Part shown: positions 10,365 to 30,543 of the stretch, one piece after another
Layout of the letters: every line of letters starts with the position of its first letter
How positions within the stretch are numbered: the first letter of the stretch is position 1
Source: Candidatus Multivoradales bacterium
Lineage (GTDB): Bacteria > Acidobacteriota > Thermoanaerobaculia > Multivoradales > J023
Reading direction: 5' to 3'
Length of the DNA: 64,000 nt
Assembly (NCBI GenBank): GCA_965248925.1
Contig: CBDFLE010000006.1
Coordinates: forward strand, 3,104,001 to 3,168,000
Made by a program: the position numbers and the translations under genes
Notes under the pieces: model-generated
Seen by the model: the letters and a program-made list of their open reading frames with translations, nothing else
Told to the model about the DNA's origin: nothing
Databases searched by the model: none

Positions 10365-11552
10365 ATGAGCGAAAGAGAAAGCCAGTTTAGACCGCCGAAC
10401 CGGGTGCTGATGGGGCCGGGACCGAGTGAAGTTCCAGCATCGATCCGAGCCGCCTTGGCGTGGCCGACGATAGGTCATCTCGACCCCGAGTACCTGCGCT
10501 TGATGGACGAGATAGGCGACATGTTGCGCCGTCTCTTTCGCACCGACAACCGTCTTACCCTGGCCTTGCCCGGCACTGGTACTTGCGGCATGGAGGCTGC
10601 CGTAGCCAACTTGATCGAGCCTGGCGATCGCCTGTTGGTGGTAGTGGCGGGCTATTTTGGTGGTCGCCTGGCGGAGATCGGTGAACGCTGCGGCGGCCAG
10701 GTCGAACGTCTCGAAGTGGAGTGGGGCAGCACTGCCCGACCCGAGCAGGTGCAAGCCGCTCTAGCTGCCCATCCTGATACCAAAGTGGTGGCGATCGTCC
10801 ATGCTGAGACTTCCACCGGCGCCCACCAACCGCTGCAAGAGATCTCGACCCTGGTGCACGATGCTGGCGCTCTGCTGTTGGTCGATGCGGTCACGTCCCT
10901 GGGCGGGGTCGAGTTGCGAGTTGACGATTGGCGCATCGATGCTTGCTACAGCGGCACCCAGAAGTGCCTCTCCTGCCCGCCCGGTCTGTCGCCGATTACC
11001 TTTTCGCCGGCGGCGATGGAAGCTATCCAGAACCGCTCCAAGCCGGTGCAAAGCTGGTATTTGGACATGGGGTTGCTGGCTACCTACTGGGGCGAGCAGC
11101 GGGCCTATCACCACACCGGGCCGATCAACATGAGCTACGCCTTGCACGAGGCTTTGCGGGAGCTGCAGGAAGAAGGCCTCGAACAGCGCATCGCGCGCCA
11201 CTCCCTGCACCACGAGGCGCTGCGAGCCGGGCTCGAGGCCCTCGGTTTGCGCTATATCGCCGAACGTTCCCTGCCGATGCTCAATGCTGTCGCCGTCCCC
11301 GAAGGGGTGGACGACGCCGCCGTGCGCGGCCGTCTTTTGGGCGAGTATGGCATCGAGATCGGCGCCGGTTTGGGGCCGTTTGCCGGCCGCGCTTGGCGCA
11401 TCGGTCTGATGGGTGCTTCGTCGAGTCGGCGCCACGTGTTGCTGGTGTTGGCGGCCCTCGAAGCGATCCTCGCCGACCAGCCGGTCGACATTATCGGCGG
11501 AGCTGCCTTGGCGGCGGCGGGCGGAGTCTACGCCCAGAAAAGTCAGCGATGA
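10365..11552 (+). CDS. Alanine-glyoxylate/serine-pyruvate aminotransferase (class V PLP)
   Basis: LMGPGPS, HAETSTG, DAVTSLGG, SGTQKCLSCPPG; GGAGG RBS before ATG 10365. Confidence 0.93.
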   Translation: MSERESQFRPPNRVLMGPGPSEVPASIRAALAWPTIGHLDPEYLRLMDEIGDMLRRLFRTDNRLTLALPGTGTCGMEAAVANLIEPGDRLLVVVAGYFGGRLAEIGERCGGQVERLEVEWGSTARPEQVQAALAAHPDTKVVAIVHAETSTGAHQPLQEISTLVHDAGALLLVDAVTSLGGVELRVDDWRIDACYSGTQKCLSCPPGLSPITFSPAAMEAIQNRSKPVQSWYLDMGLLATYWGEQRAYHHTGPINMSYALHEALRELQEEGLEQRIARHSLHHEALRAGLEALGLRYIAERSLPMLNAVAVPEGVDDAAVRGRLLGEYGIEIGAGLGPFAGRAWRIGLMGASSSRRHVLLVLAALEAILADQPVDIIGGAALAAAGGVYAQKSQR

Positions 11553-11914
11553 ACTTCGAGCTGCGACTCAAGAGAGTTTATGACCGGGCAGCGGCGGAAG
11601 ACGGTTTCCGGATCCTGGTCGAGCGCTTGTGGCCGCGGGGGGTCAGCAAGGAAAAAGCGCGGCTCGACCTGTGGCTGCGCGACATCGCTCCGTCGCCCGA
11701 GCTGCGCCAGTGGTTTGCCCACGACAGCTCCAAGTGGGACCAGTTCCAGGTCCGCTATCGGGCTGAGTTGAGTTGCCGGCCAGCCTTGGTCGAGACCCTT
11801 GTCGAGCAGCTGAGTTCCGGCCCCGTCACCCTGGTCTACGCCGCTCACGGCGAGCAGACCAGTGCTCGGTTGCTGAAAGAGTACGTCGAAGCGTTGTTGA
11901 CTGTAGACGGCTAG
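11549..11914 (+). CDS. DUF488/YeaO family protein
   Basis: KRVYD...DGFRILVERLWPRGVSKE..APS.ELRQWFAHD; ATGA overlap with aminotransferase. Confidence 0.92.
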   Translation: MNFELRLKRVYDRAAAEDGFRILVERLWPRGVSKEKARLDLWLRDIAPSPELRQWFAHDSSKWDQFQVRYRAELSCRPALVETLVEQLSSGPVTLVYAAHGEQTSARLLKEYVEALLTVDG

Positions 11915-12087
11915 CTTTTTCGAAACGGGAAGCAACAAGCCAAACCTCAGTTTACTCTCAGAGGTCGATCGTCAAGATCTACTCCAGATGCTAACCAGCC
12001 GCCGCCGACAGGAATGGCGGCTTCAAGTGAGTTATTGGCTGGAGATGTTTTCGCAGGCTTTTCGTTACTGAACTGTCGTCGGGGTCT

Positions 12088-12486
12088 TTATCTTCGTAGA
12101 ACTTCAAGTGCGACGCCGAGACATCCTAGTACTAGCAGCGAGATCAATATCGCCCCAGGAACAATTGTGATCTTGGCTTCTAGTACCATTATTGACAATA
12201 GCGTGGAAAGGCTGGCGCCACCCACCGCGCCGCCAATGATCCCCATGGCTTTGTGAGTCTTCTTGTTGCGCGACTTTAGTTGTTCCGCCCCGTGTTCGAT
12301 GTGGGCCGGGGAGACGATGTCGAGGTCTTCCCGAACAGCAAGCAGGATGCTCTGTTGGGTTAGTTCGGTGCGGTACAGAATAGCTTTTTCGTCGAGCAGA
12401 TCTTGAGCGGCCTCGGTAAACGGCAGTTTCTTGCTTGGATCCAGAATCCGCAAGAGTTGTTTTGTGTTACGAGGGTTGTTGGGCAC
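12088..12486 (-). CDS. Histone-fold-like protein with two C-terminal transmembrane helices
   Basis: FTEAAQDLL...Y...L....ILLA....IVS..HIE.G...L follows the alpha2-L2-alpha3 histone-fold pattern; two hydrophobic segments follow a basic linker. Confidence 0.6.
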   Translation of the reverse strand: MPNNPRNTKQLLRILDPSKKLPFTEAAQDLLDEKAILYRTELTQQSILLAVREDLDIVSPAHIEHGAEQLKSRNKKTHKAMGIIGGAVGGASLSTLLSIMVLEAKITIVPGAILISLLVLGCLGVALEVLRR

Positions 12487-12549
12487 GGGTCACCTTGGCC
12501 TTCTCTGAGTTGTTGAAATCTATAGCTTTAAGGTCATTGAGTCTCTAGG

Positions 12550-12780
12550 TCACTTGGTTCGTTGAGCTTCTGTGCGCCAGACGTCGTTGAGGTTTTGAGC
12601 AATATCGTCGTTCCCTCTGCGGAGCTTCCGGAGCCTCTCGGAGACTAATCTTTCGGCCGCATCGGCTGCATTCTTCCCATAGCCACCATGGCCCACCAGA
12701 GCTTCGAGAAACAGCTTGTTCATCAGCGTTGTGGAGATCGTAATCTGGACTGATGGGACTGTGTTCGCGGAACGCGGCAT
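12550..12780 (-). CDS. Small ribbon-helix-helix-like DNA-binding protein
   Basis: 76 aa; alternating beta strand VQITIST then LEALVGHGGYGKNAADAAERLV, resembling the LV..G.Y....E pattern of ParD/CopG-like RHH proteins. Confidence 0.5.
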   Translation of the reverse strand: MPRSANTVPSVQITISTTLMNKLFLEALVGHGGYGKNAADAAERLVSERLRKLRRGNDDIAQNLNDVWRTEAQRTK

Positions 12781-12844
12781 AGCTTGACTCTGTTGCGGTC
12801 AATCGTGACCTTTTCAGGTGAATTGCCGAAGCGGCTTACTTTCT

Positions 12845-12880
12845 AATCTATTCTATTGTAATAAGAATGTCAATAGAATA
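12845..12880 (-). promoter_or_regulatory. Sigma70-type promoter overlapped by a 10-bp inverted repeat
   Basis: Minus strand TTGACA(12873-12868)-N17-TAGATT(12850-12845); TATTCTATTG(12849-12858)-N12-CAATAGAATA(12871-12880). Confidence 0.7.
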
Positions 12881-13248
12881 CGTACGTGGAGATGTCGTAT
12901 GCGAAGAGGATTCAAGCACTACATATAGTGGCTGTTCATAAGTTACGCTTTATTTGCGTGTGCACTTGAGGCGCCTAAATATCTTGGTGGCCAAGCACTC
13001 TGAATTCTCTCGCCAGCTGTTGGCAGTCGAGAGTAAGACGAAGCGACTCACGCTCAACGACTGCAAGGTTCATTGGGCTGTGGCCGCCGATTCATAGCAG
13101 CGGGCTCAGTGGCGCCTGTCCGAGGAAAGTCGGATAGTCCAACAGGGGCTTAGATGGGGAGTTGGCGGCCCGAGACATTGAGGGTGGGGGGCGTTGCTAG
13201 CTTCAGCGGCCACGCCAGCTTGCGATGAATTTCGCTTGCCTCAGGGGC

Positions 13249-13830
13249 TCACCCTCTTTGCCTGGGCCAGTTCTTGGCCATCCAAGATGGGTTCAGCCGC
13301 CAGCCGGTGGAGGGTTGCACGGCATCGCGGCGGGAGATTGCTGGCGGCAGCAGGTCGGCGGTGAACGGTGAGTGGTGGATCCAAGGTGGCCGCCAGCTCA
13401 GCCAACGTAGGTGGGTGATTCTGCTCAAGTCGGGGCTGTAGAGCAGGTCGAACGTCGCGCGGCCGAGGCGGTCGACTATGTTGGTGGCTTTGAGAGCCGC
13501 CTTTGCCGGGTGGTCGCTAAAGCGCGGCTTGGCCAACACCCACCATGGATCGTAGTGCCACAGTCGGCCAAGTTCGCCGGCCTGATCGCCGAGCGATCGC
13601 GGCTCGAGGCCGGCCGCGATCTGCAATCCCCACCAGTGCCGGGTTACCGCTCCCGGCCTGGCGGCAAGATCCAAGATCGCCGGCGAATGCGGCAGGATCA
13701 GCATGAAACGCTGCACCCGTCCGCTGGCGTCGAAGAAGGGAAAGACGCTGGTCTGCGAGTAGCTCCGCGAACCGATTCGCAGGGTTGTTCCGTGCAGGGA
13801 GCGGGCCGAGCAATGACGACGCTGAGTCAA
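13249..13830 (-). CDS. Hypothetical Trp/Pro-rich protein, third gene of gntR-SPFH operon
   Basis: 4-bp overlap with SPFH stop; 193 aa; no recognised motif. Confidence 0.6.
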   Translation of the reverse strand: MTQRRHCSARSLHGTTLRIGSRSYSQTSVFPFFDASGRVQRFMLILPHSPAILDLAARPGAVTRHWWGLQIAAGLEPRSLGDQAGELGRLWHYDPWWVLAKPRFSDHPAKAALKATNIVDRLGRATFDLLYSPDLSRITHLRWLSWRPPWIHHSPFTADLLPPAISRRDAVQPSTGWRLNPSWMAKNWPRQRG

Positions 13831-14690
13831 GGGTCGTCTCGGGGGGCTTCGAAGGCGGTCGCCGCGAGCCCGACAATGCCAGGATTCATCGACTCGACCA
13901 TCCCCGAGGGCACCACCATCAGCGCCCCGCGCTCTTTGATCGACTCGTAGGTCATGTTCATCGCCCGGATACGGAGAGCAGTTGGGTTTTGCCGATAAAC
14001 CTGCGACGCTTTGTCCATCTGTTCAGCCACCAGCAGCTCGGATTCGGCCAAGATGACCCGCGCTTCTTTCTCGCGATCGGCTTGAGCCTTGCGACTCATG
14101 GCGTCTTCGAGGCTGGCCGGAATGCGCACGTCGCGGATCTCCACCGACTGCACGGTGACTCCCCATTCCGAAGTCTTGGCGTCGATCAGCCGCTGTAGCT
14201 CTTCGTCGAGCCTTTGTCGGTCGGAGATCATCTCAACCAACTCGGCTTGGCCGATGATATCGCGCAAGGTGGTTTGGGCCGCCCAGCTGACGGTGGTGGC
14301 GTAGTGCTCGACTTCGAGCACCGCCCGTTGGGCGTCGGTCACCACCCAGAACAGCACCGCGTCCACATCCACTGGCACGGTGTCTTGAGTCAGGGTCTTC
14401 TCGGCCGAGAAGGAGTCGGCACGGATGCGCATGTCAACCCGTGAACTCAGCGTATCGAACAGCGGTAGCAGCCAGGAGATGCCGGGTTTCAAGACCCGCC
14501 GGAATCGGCCCAGGCGCAGCACCACGCCGCGCTGCCACTCATTGACTTGGCGGGGAGAGAGGGCCAGCAGCCCGCCGAGCAGCAGAATCTCTATCGGTGG
14601 CCGGTGCCAAAGCGCCACGAACCCCCCGGCCAGCGCCAGAGTGACGGCGATGATCAGCCCGCAGACTACATTCGAGCTACCTTTCAGCAT
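13827..14690 (-). CDS. SPFH/slipin (stomatin-like) membrane protein
   Basis: RGVVLRLGRF, LTQDTVPVDVDAVLFW, AQTTLRDIIG, WGVTVQSVEIRDV. Confidence 0.93.
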   Translation of the reverse strand: MLKGSSNVVCGLIIAVTLALAGGFVALWHRPPIEILLLGGLLALSPRQVNEWQRGVVLRLGRFRRVLKPGISWLLPLFDTLSSRVDMRIRADSFSAEKTLTQDTVPVDVDAVLFWVVTDAQRAVLEVEHYATTVSWAAQTTLRDIIGQAELVEMISDRQRLDEELQRLIDAKTSEWGVTVQSVEIRDVRIPASLEDAMSRKAQADREKEARVILAESELLVAEQMDKASQVYRQNPTALRIRAMNMTYESIKERGALMVVPSGMVESMNPGIVGLAATAFEAPRDDP

Positions 14691-15084
14691 CAGCGATCTC
14701 CTTCCACAGGGTTTCGATCAAACGGCCGACTTCCCCGACTCGCAGGCCGGCGTCGCGGCTCAGTTCGACCAGGCGGCGAGCGCTGGCCGAAATTTCCTCG
14801 AGCCGCGCGGGCTCGACCACTTGCTCAGCACTGGCCGCGGTGACGAAGGTGCCGACGCCTCGTTCCAAGCGCAGCAGACCCTCGCGCTGCAGGTCGCGGT
14901 AGACCCGGGCCACCGTGTTGGCGTTGATCCCTAGCTCCACCGCCAAGCTGCGCACCGTTGGCAGAGCGGCCCCGGCAGCCAGCTGGCCACGGTGGATCCA
15001 CAGCCGTATCTGTTCTTCGAGCTGGATGTAGATCGGGATACCGCTACCGCGATCCACCGCAATAGGAATCTCAAGCGTCTGCAT
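14677..15084 (-). CDS. GntR family (YtrA subfamily) transcriptional regulator
   Basis: PIYIQL, LPTVRSLAVELGINANTVARVYRDL, GVGTFV; short C-terminal domain. Confidence 0.93.
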   Translation of the reverse strand: MQTLEIPIAVDRGSGIPIYIQLEEQIRLWIHRGQLAAGAALPTVRSLAVELGINANTVARVYRDLQREGLLRLERGVGTFVTAASAEQVVEPARLEEISASARRLVELSRDAGLRVGEVGRLIETLWKEIADAER

Positions 15085-30316: not shown

Positions 30317-30543
30317 GCACCGGGGCGCTGCCGTTCGGCCAGCAGCTCTTCCGTGCGTTCAGAGATATCCGGGCGACCACTCCGGTAGGCTCCAATGCCC
30401 TTGGCGGAGGGTCGAGTGTGGCGTTGGAGATAGGTACTCAAAGCCTCTCGGACCAGCACTGATTGCTTGCGTCCTTGCGAGCGCGCTAGTTCTCTTAGGG
30501 ACAACAGCATGACCTCGTCGAGGTAGAGCGTCGTTTTAGTCAT
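30313..30543 (-). CDS. CopG/RHH antitoxin (VapB-like)
   Basis: MTKTTLYLD...LARSQGR.QS.LVREAL...SG..DISER.EELL; overlap with vapC. Confidence 0.88.
   Translation of the reverse strand: MTKTTLYLDEVMLLSLRELARSQGRKQSVLVREALSTYLQRHTRPSAKGIGAYRSGRPDISERTEELLAERQRPGA

What the first reader, a model, noticed from the sequence alone, without database searches (positions are those of the whole stretch)
12088..12880. Candidate novel system: autoregulated RHH + membrane-anchored histone-fold two-gene islet
Seen: an AT-richer insert with a TTGACA-N17-TAGATT promoter overlapped by a 10-bp inverted repeat, then a 76-aa ORF, then a 132-aa ORF. In the latter, the 48 residues FTEAAQDLLDEKAILYRTELTQQSILLAVREDLDIVSPAHIEHGAEQL align without gaps, by eye, to alpha2-L2-alpha3 of archaeal HMf-type histones (sequence recalled from memory), sharing A5, L9, I25, L27, A28, I41 and E42. 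A basic linker and two TM helices follow. The RKT..D DNA-binding clamp is replaced by LDI..H, so the fold may serve oligomerisation or sensing rather than DNA wrapping. Knowledge: TM-bearing histone-fold proteins have been noted in bacteria without a known function, and sensor+2TM is a common layout for pore-forming defence effectors. Inference: a TA-like or abortive-infection module, or a DNA-membrane tether, repressed by the RHH protein.
Basis: partly seen in the sequence, partly recalled or inferred. Interest (0 to 1): 0.8.

Follow-up and report, generated by a model that had tools for sequence, protein, structure and literature searches.

The report
Membrane-anchored histone-fold protein, small regulator
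A small, foreign-looking two-gene insert encodes a rare membrane-anchored protein whose soluble half looks like a histone fold, next to a small probable regulator, but the two genes are not partners anywhere else we could look and the function remains unknown.

Summary
A low-GC islet (about 11915-13248) carries, on the minus strand, a promoter-like site overlapped by a perfect 10-bp inverted repeat, a 76-aa ORF and a 132-aa ORF.

The 132-aa protein is real. An exhaustive search found 72 family representatives, all with one layout: a soluble N-domain, a basic linker and a glycine-zipper hairpin of two membrane helices. Profile evidence puts the N-domain in the histone-fold / AAA+-lid superfamily. 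Helix lengths and an indel-free central helix of about 31 residues fit a histone fold. Its second half, however, is closest in sequence to Lon-type lids. It matches the "transmembrane histone" category noted by Schwab et al. 2024. The domain is acidic, so DNA wrapping is unlikely. No structure could be predicted because those tools were off.

"RHH" for the 76-aa protein got no profile support. It belongs to a separate conserved small-protein family found upstream of varied genes.

The pairing is not conserved. I found no RHH-like gene at 0 of 31 other family loci, and no family member at 0 of 18 RHH-like loci. In one 34-row subclade the usual neighbour is a translationally coupled two-helix membrane protein, which is absent here. 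There is no defence or toxin-antitoxin signal.

Verdict: a new member of a known but uncharacterised kind. The "system" is unproven.

The parts
11915..13248 (.). Low-GC islet between the DUF488 gene (11549-11914, +) and the last gene of a conserved GntR-SPFH-unknown operon (13249-15084, -).
   Evidence: GC is 0.46-0.55 against 0.62-0.69 in the flanks. Flank annotation comes from Pfam. The GntR-SPFH-u193 operon is conserved in 4 relatives without the islet genes. The islet's non-coding parts are single-copy in the genome.
12845..12873 (-). Sigma-70-like promoter: TTGACA (12873-12868), 17-nt spacer, TAGATT (12850-12845).
   Evidence: matches 10 of 12 positions and is the only site in 11800-13300. 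Shuffles give a mean of 0.7, so the match alone is not significant.
12849..12880 (.). Perfect 10-bp inverted repeat (TATTCTATTG / CAATAGAATA, 12-nt spacer) spanning the -35 to -10 region. Candidate operator.
   Evidence: I10; 7 of 5000 shuffles of the 120-bp upstream region hold such a repeat. That a protein binds it is inferred.
12550..12780 (-). 76-aa ORF. Member of a conserved family of small (61-81 aa) soluble proteins with a strand-helix-helix pattern (RHH-like, unverified). Probable DNA-binding regulator.
   Evidence: Homologs: G039, E=1.3e-12; 18 loci in several phyla. Alignment. No Pfam or PDB support for RHH.
12487..12549 (-). 63-nt intergenic spacer with AAGGTGA four nt before the GTG start. 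No terminator-like site on this strand, so co-transcription is likely.
   Evidence: Sequence read. The terminator scan found none on the minus strand. The operon structure is inferred.
12088..12486 (-). 132-aa ORF. Divergent member of the family that combines a histone-fold-like domain with two membrane helices.
   Evidence: 72 representatives at E<=1e-3, best non-self 8.2e-11. Alignment. Tree: it sits in a 13-row clade with 97% local support.
12271..12468 (-). Residues 7-72: histone-fold-like domain. alpha1 about 7-15, L1 19-24 (LPFT), alpha2 about 24-55, L2 56-59 (DIVS), alpha3 60-72. Net charge -3.
   Evidence: The helix limits are inferred from conservation, the absence of indels and the scarcity of Gly/Pro. 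They are not from a model.
12244..12270 (-). Residues 73-81: basic linker (net charge +4). By the positive-inside rule it places the N-domain in the cytoplasm.
   Evidence: the family median linker charge is +3. The topology is inferred.
12097..12243 (-). Residues 82-130: hairpin of two membrane helices with a glycine-zipper motif. G85, G86, G90 and G121 are nearly invariant in the family.
   Evidence: Hydropathy. Column conservation.

Best explanation
A horizontally acquired, low-GC islet of about 1.3 kb carries a two-gene operon.

The second gene encodes a rare bacterial membrane protein. It has a cytoplasmic, acidic domain with histone-fold topology: a short helix, a loop, a continuous helix of about 31 residues, a loop and a short helix. 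This domain is tethered by a basic linker to a C-terminal glycine-zipper hairpin of two membrane helices. The protein belongs to the sparsely distributed family that matches the "transmembrane histone" category of prokaryotic histone-fold proteins. The second helix-strand-helix of the domain is closest in sequence to the lid domain of Lon-type AAA+ proteases.

The protein is not a DNA-wrapping histone. Most likely (inferred, not shown) the histone-fold domain acts as an obligate handshake dimeriser. That would clamp two hairpins into a small glycine-zipper membrane assembly which acts at the membrane.

The first gene encodes a small soluble protein of a different, widely conserved family. Members of that family sit with their own promoter in front of varied cargo genes. 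Here it probably binds the inverted repeat over the promoter and represses the operon (inferred). The pairing of the two genes is local, not a conserved system.
For: Family and architecture:
- 72 representatives at E<=1e-3, 104-252 aa long, aligned over the full length.
- G90 is invariant; G85, G86 and G121 are present in 90% or more.

Fold:
- The family profile against the PDB lists 53 histone-fold chains among the 60 best. The best are H3 at E=0.0015, HPhA at 0.023 and HMfB at 0.084. The rest are 6 AAA+ chains (MCM6, RuvBL2) and 1 other.
- Pfam on the members: LonB_AAA-LID hits 32 of 72, CBFD_NFYB_HMF 16 of 72, Cdc6_lid 15 of 72 and Histone 4 of 72.
- In 10 members scanned one by one, lid hits cover about 26-33 residues while histone-model hits cover 38-47 residues.
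- hhalign to a bacterial histone-like ORF gives P=6.4e-4 over 50 ungapped columns.
- hhalign to Lon-like lids gives P=6.5e-8 and 1.5e-9, but over only 31 columns.
- Alignment columns for residues 28-59 have no indel in 72 sequences and at most 10% Gly/Pro.
- The central helix is about 13-14 residues longer than the lid's and has no hinge. Absence of a hinge is the feature that separates histones from lids according to Alva et al. 2007 (Results section read).
- JGI/IMG names member P0055 'histone H3/H4'.

Not DNA-binding:
- Net charge of the domain is -3 here, the family median is -1, and only 16 of 72 are positive.
- Schwab et al. 2024 note transmembrane histones that lack DNA-binding residues.

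Acquisition:
- GC dip.
- Full-length family hits in only 2 of 401 genomes of the phylum.
- The islet genes are not found in 40 relatives.
- The neighbouring operon is conserved without the islet in 4 relatives.

Regulator family:
- 18 loci across phyla lie upstream of ExbB, FtsK, TIR, response-regulator and unknown genes.
- A conserved palindromic heptamer lies at -11 or -22 from the start codon in 12 of those 18 loci.
- An inverted repeat lies over the promoter here.
Against: - No three-dimensional model could be made, so the continuous central helix, the dimer and the membrane assembly are all inferred.
- The window protein alone hits no Pfam family at E<=10 and no PDB chain. PF00808 finds nothing in this genome at E<=10.
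- In the 10 members scanned singly, PF00808 scores (13.6-15.8 bits) were below its 21.4-bit cut-off. The strongest single statistical link is to AAA+ lids, not to histones.
- The RHH fold and DNA binding of the 76-aa protein have no profile support.
- The window lacks the heptamer that is typical of that family's upstream regions.
- The promoter match alone is within chance.
- In the one well-sampled subclade, and in Blastococcus, the family protein has an upstream two-helix membrane partner that is missing here. The window copy may therefore work differently or be a remnant.
Confidence: 0.55

Rival explanations
1. Toxin-antitoxin or abortive-infection module. The glycine-zipper hairpin is a membrane-depolarising effector whose oligomerisation is driven or gated by the histone-fold domain. 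The upstream small protein is its transcriptional repressor and/or antitoxin.
For: - A compact two-gene operon with a small upstream gene and an inverted repeat over the promoter.
- Foreign composition and patchy distribution.
- Relatives of the membrane protein lie beside integron-type integrases in L030 and L074, TIR genes in L076/L077 and a Type ISP restriction enzyme in L078.
- Some RHH-like family members precede a TIR gene or unknown cargo.
- The 76-aa protein has a C-terminal tail longer than most of its relatives.
Against: - The pair never recurs: 0 of 31 and 0 of 18 loci.
- No PADLOC hit for either protein or for the two-helix partner at meaningful E-values.
- No phage, plasmid or viral-contig relatives.
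- Many family loci lie among housekeeping genes, such as spoT, glnS and nfo neighbourhoods.
- Most RHH-like relatives precede exbB or ftsK.
- There is a 63-nt gap between the genes rather than the overlap typical of toxin-antitoxin pairs.
- Toxicity is untested.
Confidence: 0.15
2. The N-domain is a free-standing AAA+ lid-type four-helix bundle derived from a Lon-like protease, not a histone fold. It acts as a monomeric interaction module on a membrane anchor.
For: - hhalign to Lon-like ORFs gives P=6.5e-8 and 1.5e-9 with 35% identity over 31 columns, far stronger than to any histone.
- LonB_AAA-LID is the commonest Pfam hit (32 of 72), and one member (P0018) scores 24.9 bits against a cut-off of 22.4.
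- In the genome search, the profile's only other hits in the phylum are ORFs of 808-885 aa. Six of these were read and are Lon-like.
Against: - The match covers only the second helix-strand-helix.
- The family's central helix has no indel, hardly any Gly/Pro and an unbroken hydrophobic stripe over about 31 residues. It is 13-14 residues longer than the lid's helix.
- Histone models and histone chains align over 38-71 positions, including alpha1.
- Lids and histones are held to be homologous (Alva 2007), so lid similarity does not exclude a histone fold.
Confidence: 0.2
3. DNA-membrane tether. The histone-fold dimer binds DNA and anchors the chromosome or a mobile element to the membrane.
For: The histone-fold ancestry. 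A minority of family members have a positively charged domain, 16 of 72.
Against: The window domain has net charge -3, and the loop positions that carry basic DNA-contact residues in histones are L-D-I here. Schwab et al. describe this category as lacking DNA-binding residues.
Confidence: 0.04

Closest known systems
"Transmembrane" category of prokaryotic histone-fold proteins (Schwab et al., Nat Commun 2024, PMC11390915; passages read, supplement not seen)
   Same: A histone-fold domain joined to transmembrane segment(s). Conventional DNA-binding residues are lacking. No known function.
   Different: I could not compare with their members, because Supplementary Fig. 7 and Table 2 are closed. 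The window protein sits in a rare 13-row clade apart from the bulk of the family. It has a small soluble gene upstream instead of a membrane partner.
Archaeal and bacterial histones (HMfB/HPhA type; bacterial HBb-like; Pfam CBFD_NFYB_HMF PF00808)
   Same: The same order and lengths of alpha1-L1-alpha2-L2-alpha3. Ungapped alignment over 50 residues.
   Different: Only marginal statistics (best PDB E=0.0015; the window protein alone gets no hit). The domain is acidic, lacks basic loop residues and carries a membrane anchor. It is almost certainly not a chromatin protein.
Lid (C-) domain of Lon-type AAA+ proteases (Pfam LonB_AAA-LID PF20436)
   Same: The second helix-strand-helix is 35% identical to the lid's, with shared ES...A.R...D.VS..HVE.A positions.
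   Different: No ATPase or protease domains. The central helix is about 13-14 residues longer without a hinge. The lid match covers only half of the domain.
CopG/Arc/MetJ ribbon-helix-helix repressors (Pfam RHH_1 PF01402), for the 76-aa protein
   Same: Size, a strand-helix-loop-helix pattern (seen by eye), position at the head of an operon, and an inverted repeat over its promoter.
   Different: No profile similarity: 0 of 19 members hit any RHH Pfam family at E<=1, and hhalign gives P=0.13. Its relatives lie upstream of exbB, ftsK and other genes rather than toxins.

Membership tests
Histone fold | [quoted passage not shown] | tested here: met
   By sequence statistics only. Columns 28-59 have no indel in 72 sequences and at most 10% Gly/Pro. 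The central helix is 13-14 residues longer than in Lon lids. The criterion comes from Alva 2007. No 3D model was possible.
Histone fold | Significant match to curated histone models (PF00808 / PF00125 above cut-off) | tested here: not met
   The window protein has no Pfam hit at E<=10. PF00808 finds nothing in the genome at E<=10. Among family members, 16 of 72 hit PF00808 at E<=1, best 4.8e-4. In the 10 members scanned singly, PF00808 scores were 13.6-15.8 bits against a cut-off of 21.4.
Histone fold | Handshake dimer | not testable with these tools
DNA-binding (nucleosomal-type) histones | Basic DNA-contact residues in L1/L2 and a positively charged surface | tested here: not met
   The L2 region reads E-D-L-D-I-V-S. 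Domain net charge is -3. The family median is -1 and 16 of 72 are positive.
Transmembrane histones (Schwab 2024 category) | Histone fold plus transmembrane domain, lacking DNA-binding residues | tested here: inconclusive
   The architecture fits.
AAA+ lid domain (LonB_AAA-LID) | Four-helix bundle of two helix-strand-helix motifs joined by a hinge, following an ATPase core | tested here: not met
   There is no ATPase region in 132 aa. No hinge was detected. The lid match is limited to 31 columns. One of 72 members (P0018) passes the Pfam cut-off on that half.
Ribbon-helix-helix repressors | Match to RHH families, or to RHH domains of the same genome | tested here: not met
   Pfam: 0 of 19 members hit an RHH family at E<=1. 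The PDB profile search found no RHH chain. hhalign against 8 RHH_1 domains of G000 gave P=0.13 over 11 columns. A PF01402 scan of the genome lists 10 matches and this gene is not among them.
Ribbon-helix-helix repressors | Dimeric strand-helix-helix fold and operator binding | not testable with these tools
   The structure tools were off. The strand-helix-helix pattern is read by eye from the alignment.
Type II toxin-antitoxin / defence module | Conserved co-occurrence of the two genes | tested here: not met
   An RHH-like gene is present at 0 of 31 other loci of the membrane protein family: 7 GTDB, 22 metagenome, G038 and Blastococcus. A family member is present at 0 of 18 RHH-like loci. Contexts of the window's own clade are not retrievable, apart from G038.
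Type II toxin-antitoxin / defence module | Match to known defence or toxin families; toxicity | tested here: not met
   PADLOC gives no hit for either protein and PHROGs gives none of note. Toxicity is not testable here.

The most novel reading that the evidence does not exclude
The family of histone-fold proteins with two membrane helices is a new kind of small membrane effector. The histone handshake would act as the oligomerisation switch for a glycine-zipper pore. The protein would normally be paired with a two-helix membrane partner and spread partly as integron cassettes. The window would hold a variant in which the partner is replaced by a dedicated autorepressor, making a new toxin-antitoxin or abortive-infection-like module. 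The family would also be a living intermediate between Lon-type AAA+ lids and the histone fold.
Probability: 0.12. Interest if true: 0.8.

Novelty: new member of a known kind. Interest (0 to 1): 0.45.

Why it matters
Histone-fold proteins with membrane anchors have been listed in bacteria, but nobody knows what they do.

This work adds several handles:
- The family is real but very rare and patchy: 2 of 401 genomes of this phylum, and about ten known sequences in the window's own clade.
- Its soluble domain has histone-like helix lengths, yet its best sequence match is to Lon-type AAA+ lids. This bears on the proposed origin of the histone fold from such lids.
- In the best-sampled subclade it forms a translationally coupled pair with a two-helix membrane protein.

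If the domain proves to be a handshake dimer that organises a membrane assembly, it would be a use of the histone fold unrelated to DNA.

The window's own pairing with a small regulator offers a simple, testable expression unit. It should not be read as a conserved system.

Tried and rejected
Structure and binding:
- The protein-atlas search held neither P0001 nor P0021.

Single-sequence searches of the window proteins:
- Pfam, NCBIfam and PDB gave nothing useful.
- The word-based homolog search found only the 132-aa protein itself.

Neighbourhoods of the window protein's own clade:
- A7 found nothing in genome contigs.
- A8 found nothing in metagenome contigs.
- A profile search with A4 added one new sequence only.
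- All clade members come from contigs of 0.5-5 kb.
- This is the main gap. The statement that the pairing is local rests on the other clades plus G038.

Mobile-element association:
- No relatives in viral contigs or plasmids.
- No PADLOC or PHROG signal.
- No tRNA in window 1-30000.
- No Rfam match in 11700-13400.
- No second copy of the islet's non-coding parts in the genome.
- I looked by eye for an attC-like site downstream of the 132-aa gene and saw only a weak hairpin. I make no claim about it.

Expression:
- The look-up of sequencing runs listed four runs of one sample and no RNA holder.

Other:
- The partner-protein profile does not hit the window, G038, Blastococcus or any of the 72 family members.
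- The N-terminal membrane region fused in P0053 is only suggestive.
- A second literature search for membrane-anchored histone-fold proteins returned nothing relevant. A statement that no function is in print rests only, and supplements were closed.
Full report
**1. What is there**

The minus strand between 12088 and 12880 holds, in order:
- a TTGACA-17-TAGATT promoter-like site (12873..12845);
- a perfect 10-bp inverted repeat (12849-12858 / 12871-12880);
- a leader of about 58 nt;
- a 76-aa ORF (12780..12550, ATG start);
- a 63-nt spacer with AAGGTGA four nt before a GTG;
- a 132-aa ORF (12486..12088).

The promoter match is the only one in 11800-13300, but shuffles give a mean of 0.7 such sites. 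The inverted repeat is rarer. 34 of 1000 shuffles of the islet hold one, as do 7 of 5000 shuffles of the 120 bp upstream of the gene. The whole window has 20 such repeats.

GC falls to 0.46-0.55 between about 11850 and 13200, against 0.62-0.69 outside.

The islet lies between two sets of genes:
- an aminotransferase-V gene and a DUF488 gene (plus strand, ending at 11914);
- a GntR / SPFH / 193-aa-unknown operon (minus strand, 13249-15084).

That operon is conserved in four genomes of the family without the islet genes and without a low-GC stretch downstream. Both islet genes are single-copy in the 8.0-Mb genome. So are the non-coding parts. The organism is an environmental member of the Acidobacteriota. 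This is inferred from the title of the record that matches a same-order relative (L036).

**2. The 132-aa protein is a member of a real, rare family**

Alone it hits nothing in Pfam, NCBIfam or the PDB. The word-indexed search found only the protein itself.

The exhaustive phmmer search found 72 representatives at E<=1e-3, counting itself. The best non-self hit is 8.2e-11. Lengths are 104-252 aa and nearly all align over the whole length.

The alignment shows one architecture:
- a variable N-terminus;
- a short helix;
- a P-F-S loop;
- a long conserved stretch ending in R...D.VS..HVE.A...L;
- a basic linker;
- a first hydrophobic segment with G..GG...GA..S;
- a short loop;
- a second hydrophobic segment with an almost invariant Gly.

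Hydropathy puts the segments of the window protein at about 82-102 and 106-130. The linker carries +4 (family median +3). By the positive-inside rule the N-domain is therefore cytoplasmic (the topology is inferred).

**3. Which fold?**

Evidence for a histone fold:
- Searched against PDB sequences, the family profile lists 53 histone-fold chains among its 60 best. These include H3, H2B, HPhA, HMfA/B, NF-YB, NC2-beta and CENP-W. The rest are 6 AAA+ chains (MCM6, RuvBL2) and one other. E-values start at 0.0015. The alignments to H2B run over profile positions 7-77, that is from alpha1 to alpha3.
- Pfam on the 72 members hits CBFD_NFYB_HMF in 16, Histone in 4 and TFIID_20kDa in 3.
- In ten members scanned singly, histone-model hits cover 38-47 residues.
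- hhalign of the family against a 72-aa histone-like ORF from the same phylum (found with PF00808) aligns residues 21-70 of the window protein to 20-69 without a gap, at P=6.4e-4. Against an H2B-like ORF, P=0.011.
- JGI/IMG names member P0055 "histone H3/H4".

Evidence for an AAA+ lid:
- Pfam hits LonB_AAA-LID in 32 of the 72 members, Cdc6_lid in 15 and TIP49_C in 6.
- In the ten members scanned singly, lid hits cover only about 26-33 residues, which is the second helix-strand-helix. One member, P0018, passes the LonB lid cut-off.
- The strongest link is to the lid of Lon-like ORFs of about 820 aa, which the profile itself picked up in the phylum. hhalign gives P=6.5e-8 and 1.5e-9 with 35% identity, but over 31 columns only.

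Alva et al. 2007 (Results section read) hold that lids and histones are homologous. [quoted passage not shown]

In this family the columns for residues 28-59 carry no insertion or deletion in any of 72 sequences. They hold at most 10% Gly/Pro. They also show a regular hydrophobic stripe at F23, A27, L31, I/V35, Y38, L42, S46 and L49/A50. The distance from the P-F-S loop to the conserved E-S is 23 residues, against 37 in the Lon-like lid (counted by me). Global hhalign needs a 13-column deletion to fit the lid.

I therefore read the domain as having histone-fold topology, with a second half that has stayed close to Lon-type lids. This rests on sequence statistics, because no model could be built. 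I put it at about 0.7.

**4. Not a DNA-wrapping histone**

The loop that carries basic contact residues in histones reads L-D-I here. The family consensus is A-D-x. The window domain has net charge -3, the family median is -1, and only 16 of 72 domains are positive.

Schwab et al. 2024 list a "transmembrane" category among 17 categories of prokaryotic histones. [quoted passage not shown] The members are only in the supplement, which I could not see. The architecture fits. Identity with their set is unchecked.

**5. The 76-aa protein**

It has clear relatives:
- two metagenome proteins at 58% identity;
- one in a same-order genome at E=1.3e-12;
- 18 loci in species-representative genomes titled Verrucomicrobiota, delta-proteobacterial / Binatia, Thermoanaerobaculia, Nitrospirota, Neomarinimicrobiota and others.

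The alignment shows an alternating polar/hydrophobic strand, a helix, a G-K-N loop and a second helix. By eye this is an RHH-like pattern.

No profile test supports RHH membership:
- 0 of 19 members hit an RHH Pfam family at E<=1.
- The PDB profile search has no RHH chain, and its best hit is NusA at E=0.073.
- hhalign against eight RHH_1 domains of the same genome gives P=0.13.

The relatives sit upstream of varied genes:
- MotA/ExbB-type genes in six Verrucomicrobiota loci (Pfam run on one; the others read by eye);
- FtsK in four (Pfam run on one);
- a TIR gene in one;
- a response regulator in two;
- unknowns in the rest.

In 12 of the 18 loci a palindromic heptamer (ATGSCAT) lies exactly 11 or 22 nt before the start codon. 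That is about 90 times its density in the rest of those loci. This speaks for a conserved cis-element and so for a nucleic-acid-binding protein. The window lacks that heptamer and has its own inverted repeat instead. I rate "small DNA-binding autoregulator" at about 0.6 and "RHH fold" at about 0.5-0.6. Both are inferred.

**6. Do the two genes belong together?**

- From the regulator side, the family profile of the membrane protein hits no ORF in any of the 18 loci at E<=1.
- From the membrane-protein side I obtained 7 loci from genome representatives, 22 from metagenomes, the G038 locus and the Blastococcus locus. The RHH-like profile hits none of these 31.

Instead, 6 of the 7 and 17 of the 22 loci carry, directly upstream and mostly overlapping the start, a conserved protein of 100-155 aa. 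It has two membrane helices and a C-terminal motif ending in L-N-P. The six loci without it fall into two groups:
- two contigs too short upstream (L083, L085);
- one lineage with a MerR-type response regulator upstream (L035, L091-L093).

In Blastococcus an unrelated two-helix membrane ORF overlaps the start by 4 nt. In G038 a 462-aa ORF with C-terminal hydrophobic segments (read by eye) overlaps it.

All loci with the conserved partner fall in one 34-row subclade of a FastTree built from 94 rows. The window protein sits in a separate 13-row clade with 97% local support. Within that clade only G038 has known context. The other members come from contigs of 0.5-5 kb that I could not fetch.

Its own clade, however, remains almost unsampled.

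**7. Mobile or defence context?**

The family is patchy. Full-length hits occur in 2 of 401 genomes of the phylum and in none of 40 relatives.

Some subclade loci lie near genes of this kind:
- an integron-type tyrosine recombinase (L030, L074);
- TIR genes (L076/L077);
- a Type ISP restriction enzyme (L078).

Others lie among housekeeping genes: spoT and glnS in Thiotrichales-like loci, and an nfo neighbourhood conserved in Terriglobia-like loci (read by eye, Pfam not run on these).

There are no PADLOC, PHROG, plasmid or viral-contig hits. Nothing in the window's own neighbourhood looks like a defence island.

**8. How it most likely works**

Shown:
- the operon layout;
- family membership;
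- the domain order;
- the lack of basic residues;
- the foreign composition;
- the non-conservation of the pair.

Inferred:
- The histone-fold domain dimerises by the handshake that a hinge-less double helix-strand-helix requires.
- This brings two glycine-zipper hairpins together on the cytoplasmic face and forms a four-helix or larger membrane assembly.
- The 76-aa protein binds the inverted repeat and represses the operon.

What the assembly does is open. It could be a scaffold, a stress protein or a conductance. I give the effector / toxin-antitoxin-like reading about 0.15, a pure lid-type monomer about 0.2 (a rival on the fold only) and a DNA tether about 0.04.

**9. Verdict**

The protein is a new, divergent member of an already noted but uncharacterised kind. 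The "novel two-gene system" is not established.

Three points here may be new, judging only from the main texts I could search (supplements closed):
- the conserved partner with two membrane helices;
- the Lon-lid affinity of the domain's second half;
- the conserved heptamer upstream of the small-protein family.

Noticed in passing
L038-L048, L051 (upstream of the RHH-like genes); window 12868-12874 for comparison: A palindromic heptamer ATGSCAT lies exactly 11 or 22 nt before the start codon in 12 of 18 loci of the small-protein family, across several phyla. That is about 90 times denser than elsewhere in those loci. The window has only TTGACAT, which is its -35 hexamer plus T, at -93. This is a likely conserved operator or initiation-region element.
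   Followed up: partly
L029-L034, L073-L090 (e.g. L029:1197-1499, L034:3526-3915): A conserved protein of 100-155 aa with two membrane helices and a C-terminal ...L..L...Y..AL..S.LNP motif lies directly upstream of the histone-fold membrane gene, mostly overlapping its start. It is present in 23 of 29 loci of one subclade. It has no Pfam family; the only weak hit is 8xMP at E=0.006.
   Followed up: partly
L021:625-2988 (-) and L022-L024, L026, L027: Lon-like ORFs of about 820 aa in the same phylum share a 31-residue stretch at 35% identity with the second helix-strand-helix of the family (hhalign P=6.5e-8 and 1.5e-9). PF00808 also cross-hits an 840-aa ORF in the same phylum.
   Followed up: yes
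L055:368-703 (-), G107 contig of 1358 bp: A 111-aa ORF that matches PF00808 above its cut-off and looks like a eukaryotic-type H2B, on a very short contig of a MAG from this phylum. Possibly contamination.
   Followed up: no
window 30424-30534 (-): An RHH_1 (PF01402) match of 25.9 bits, above the cut-off, inside a 146-aa ORF elsewhere in the window. It is one of 10 such matches in the genome. It may belong to a toxin-antitoxin pair.
   Followed up: no
L030:2418-3521 (-), L074:202-1170 (-), L076:2415-3356, L078:2108-4876: Some subclade modules lie next to tyrosine recombinases with the SAM-like N-domain typical of integron integrases, next to TIR-domain genes, or next to a Type ISP restriction-modification gene. 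Others lie among housekeeping genes.
   Followed up: partly
P0053 (252 aa), P0014 (236 aa), P0058 (190 aa): Family members with extra parts. P0053 has an N-terminal hydrophobic region fused in front of the histone-fold domain, with no similarity to the partner profile. P0014 and P0058 carry C-terminal soluble extensions.
   Followed up: partly
window 13249-13830 (-): The 193-aa ORF with no Pfam family is a real gene. It has homologs at 34-42% identity, always downstream of GntR and SPFH genes, in 4 genomes of the family.
   Followed up: yes
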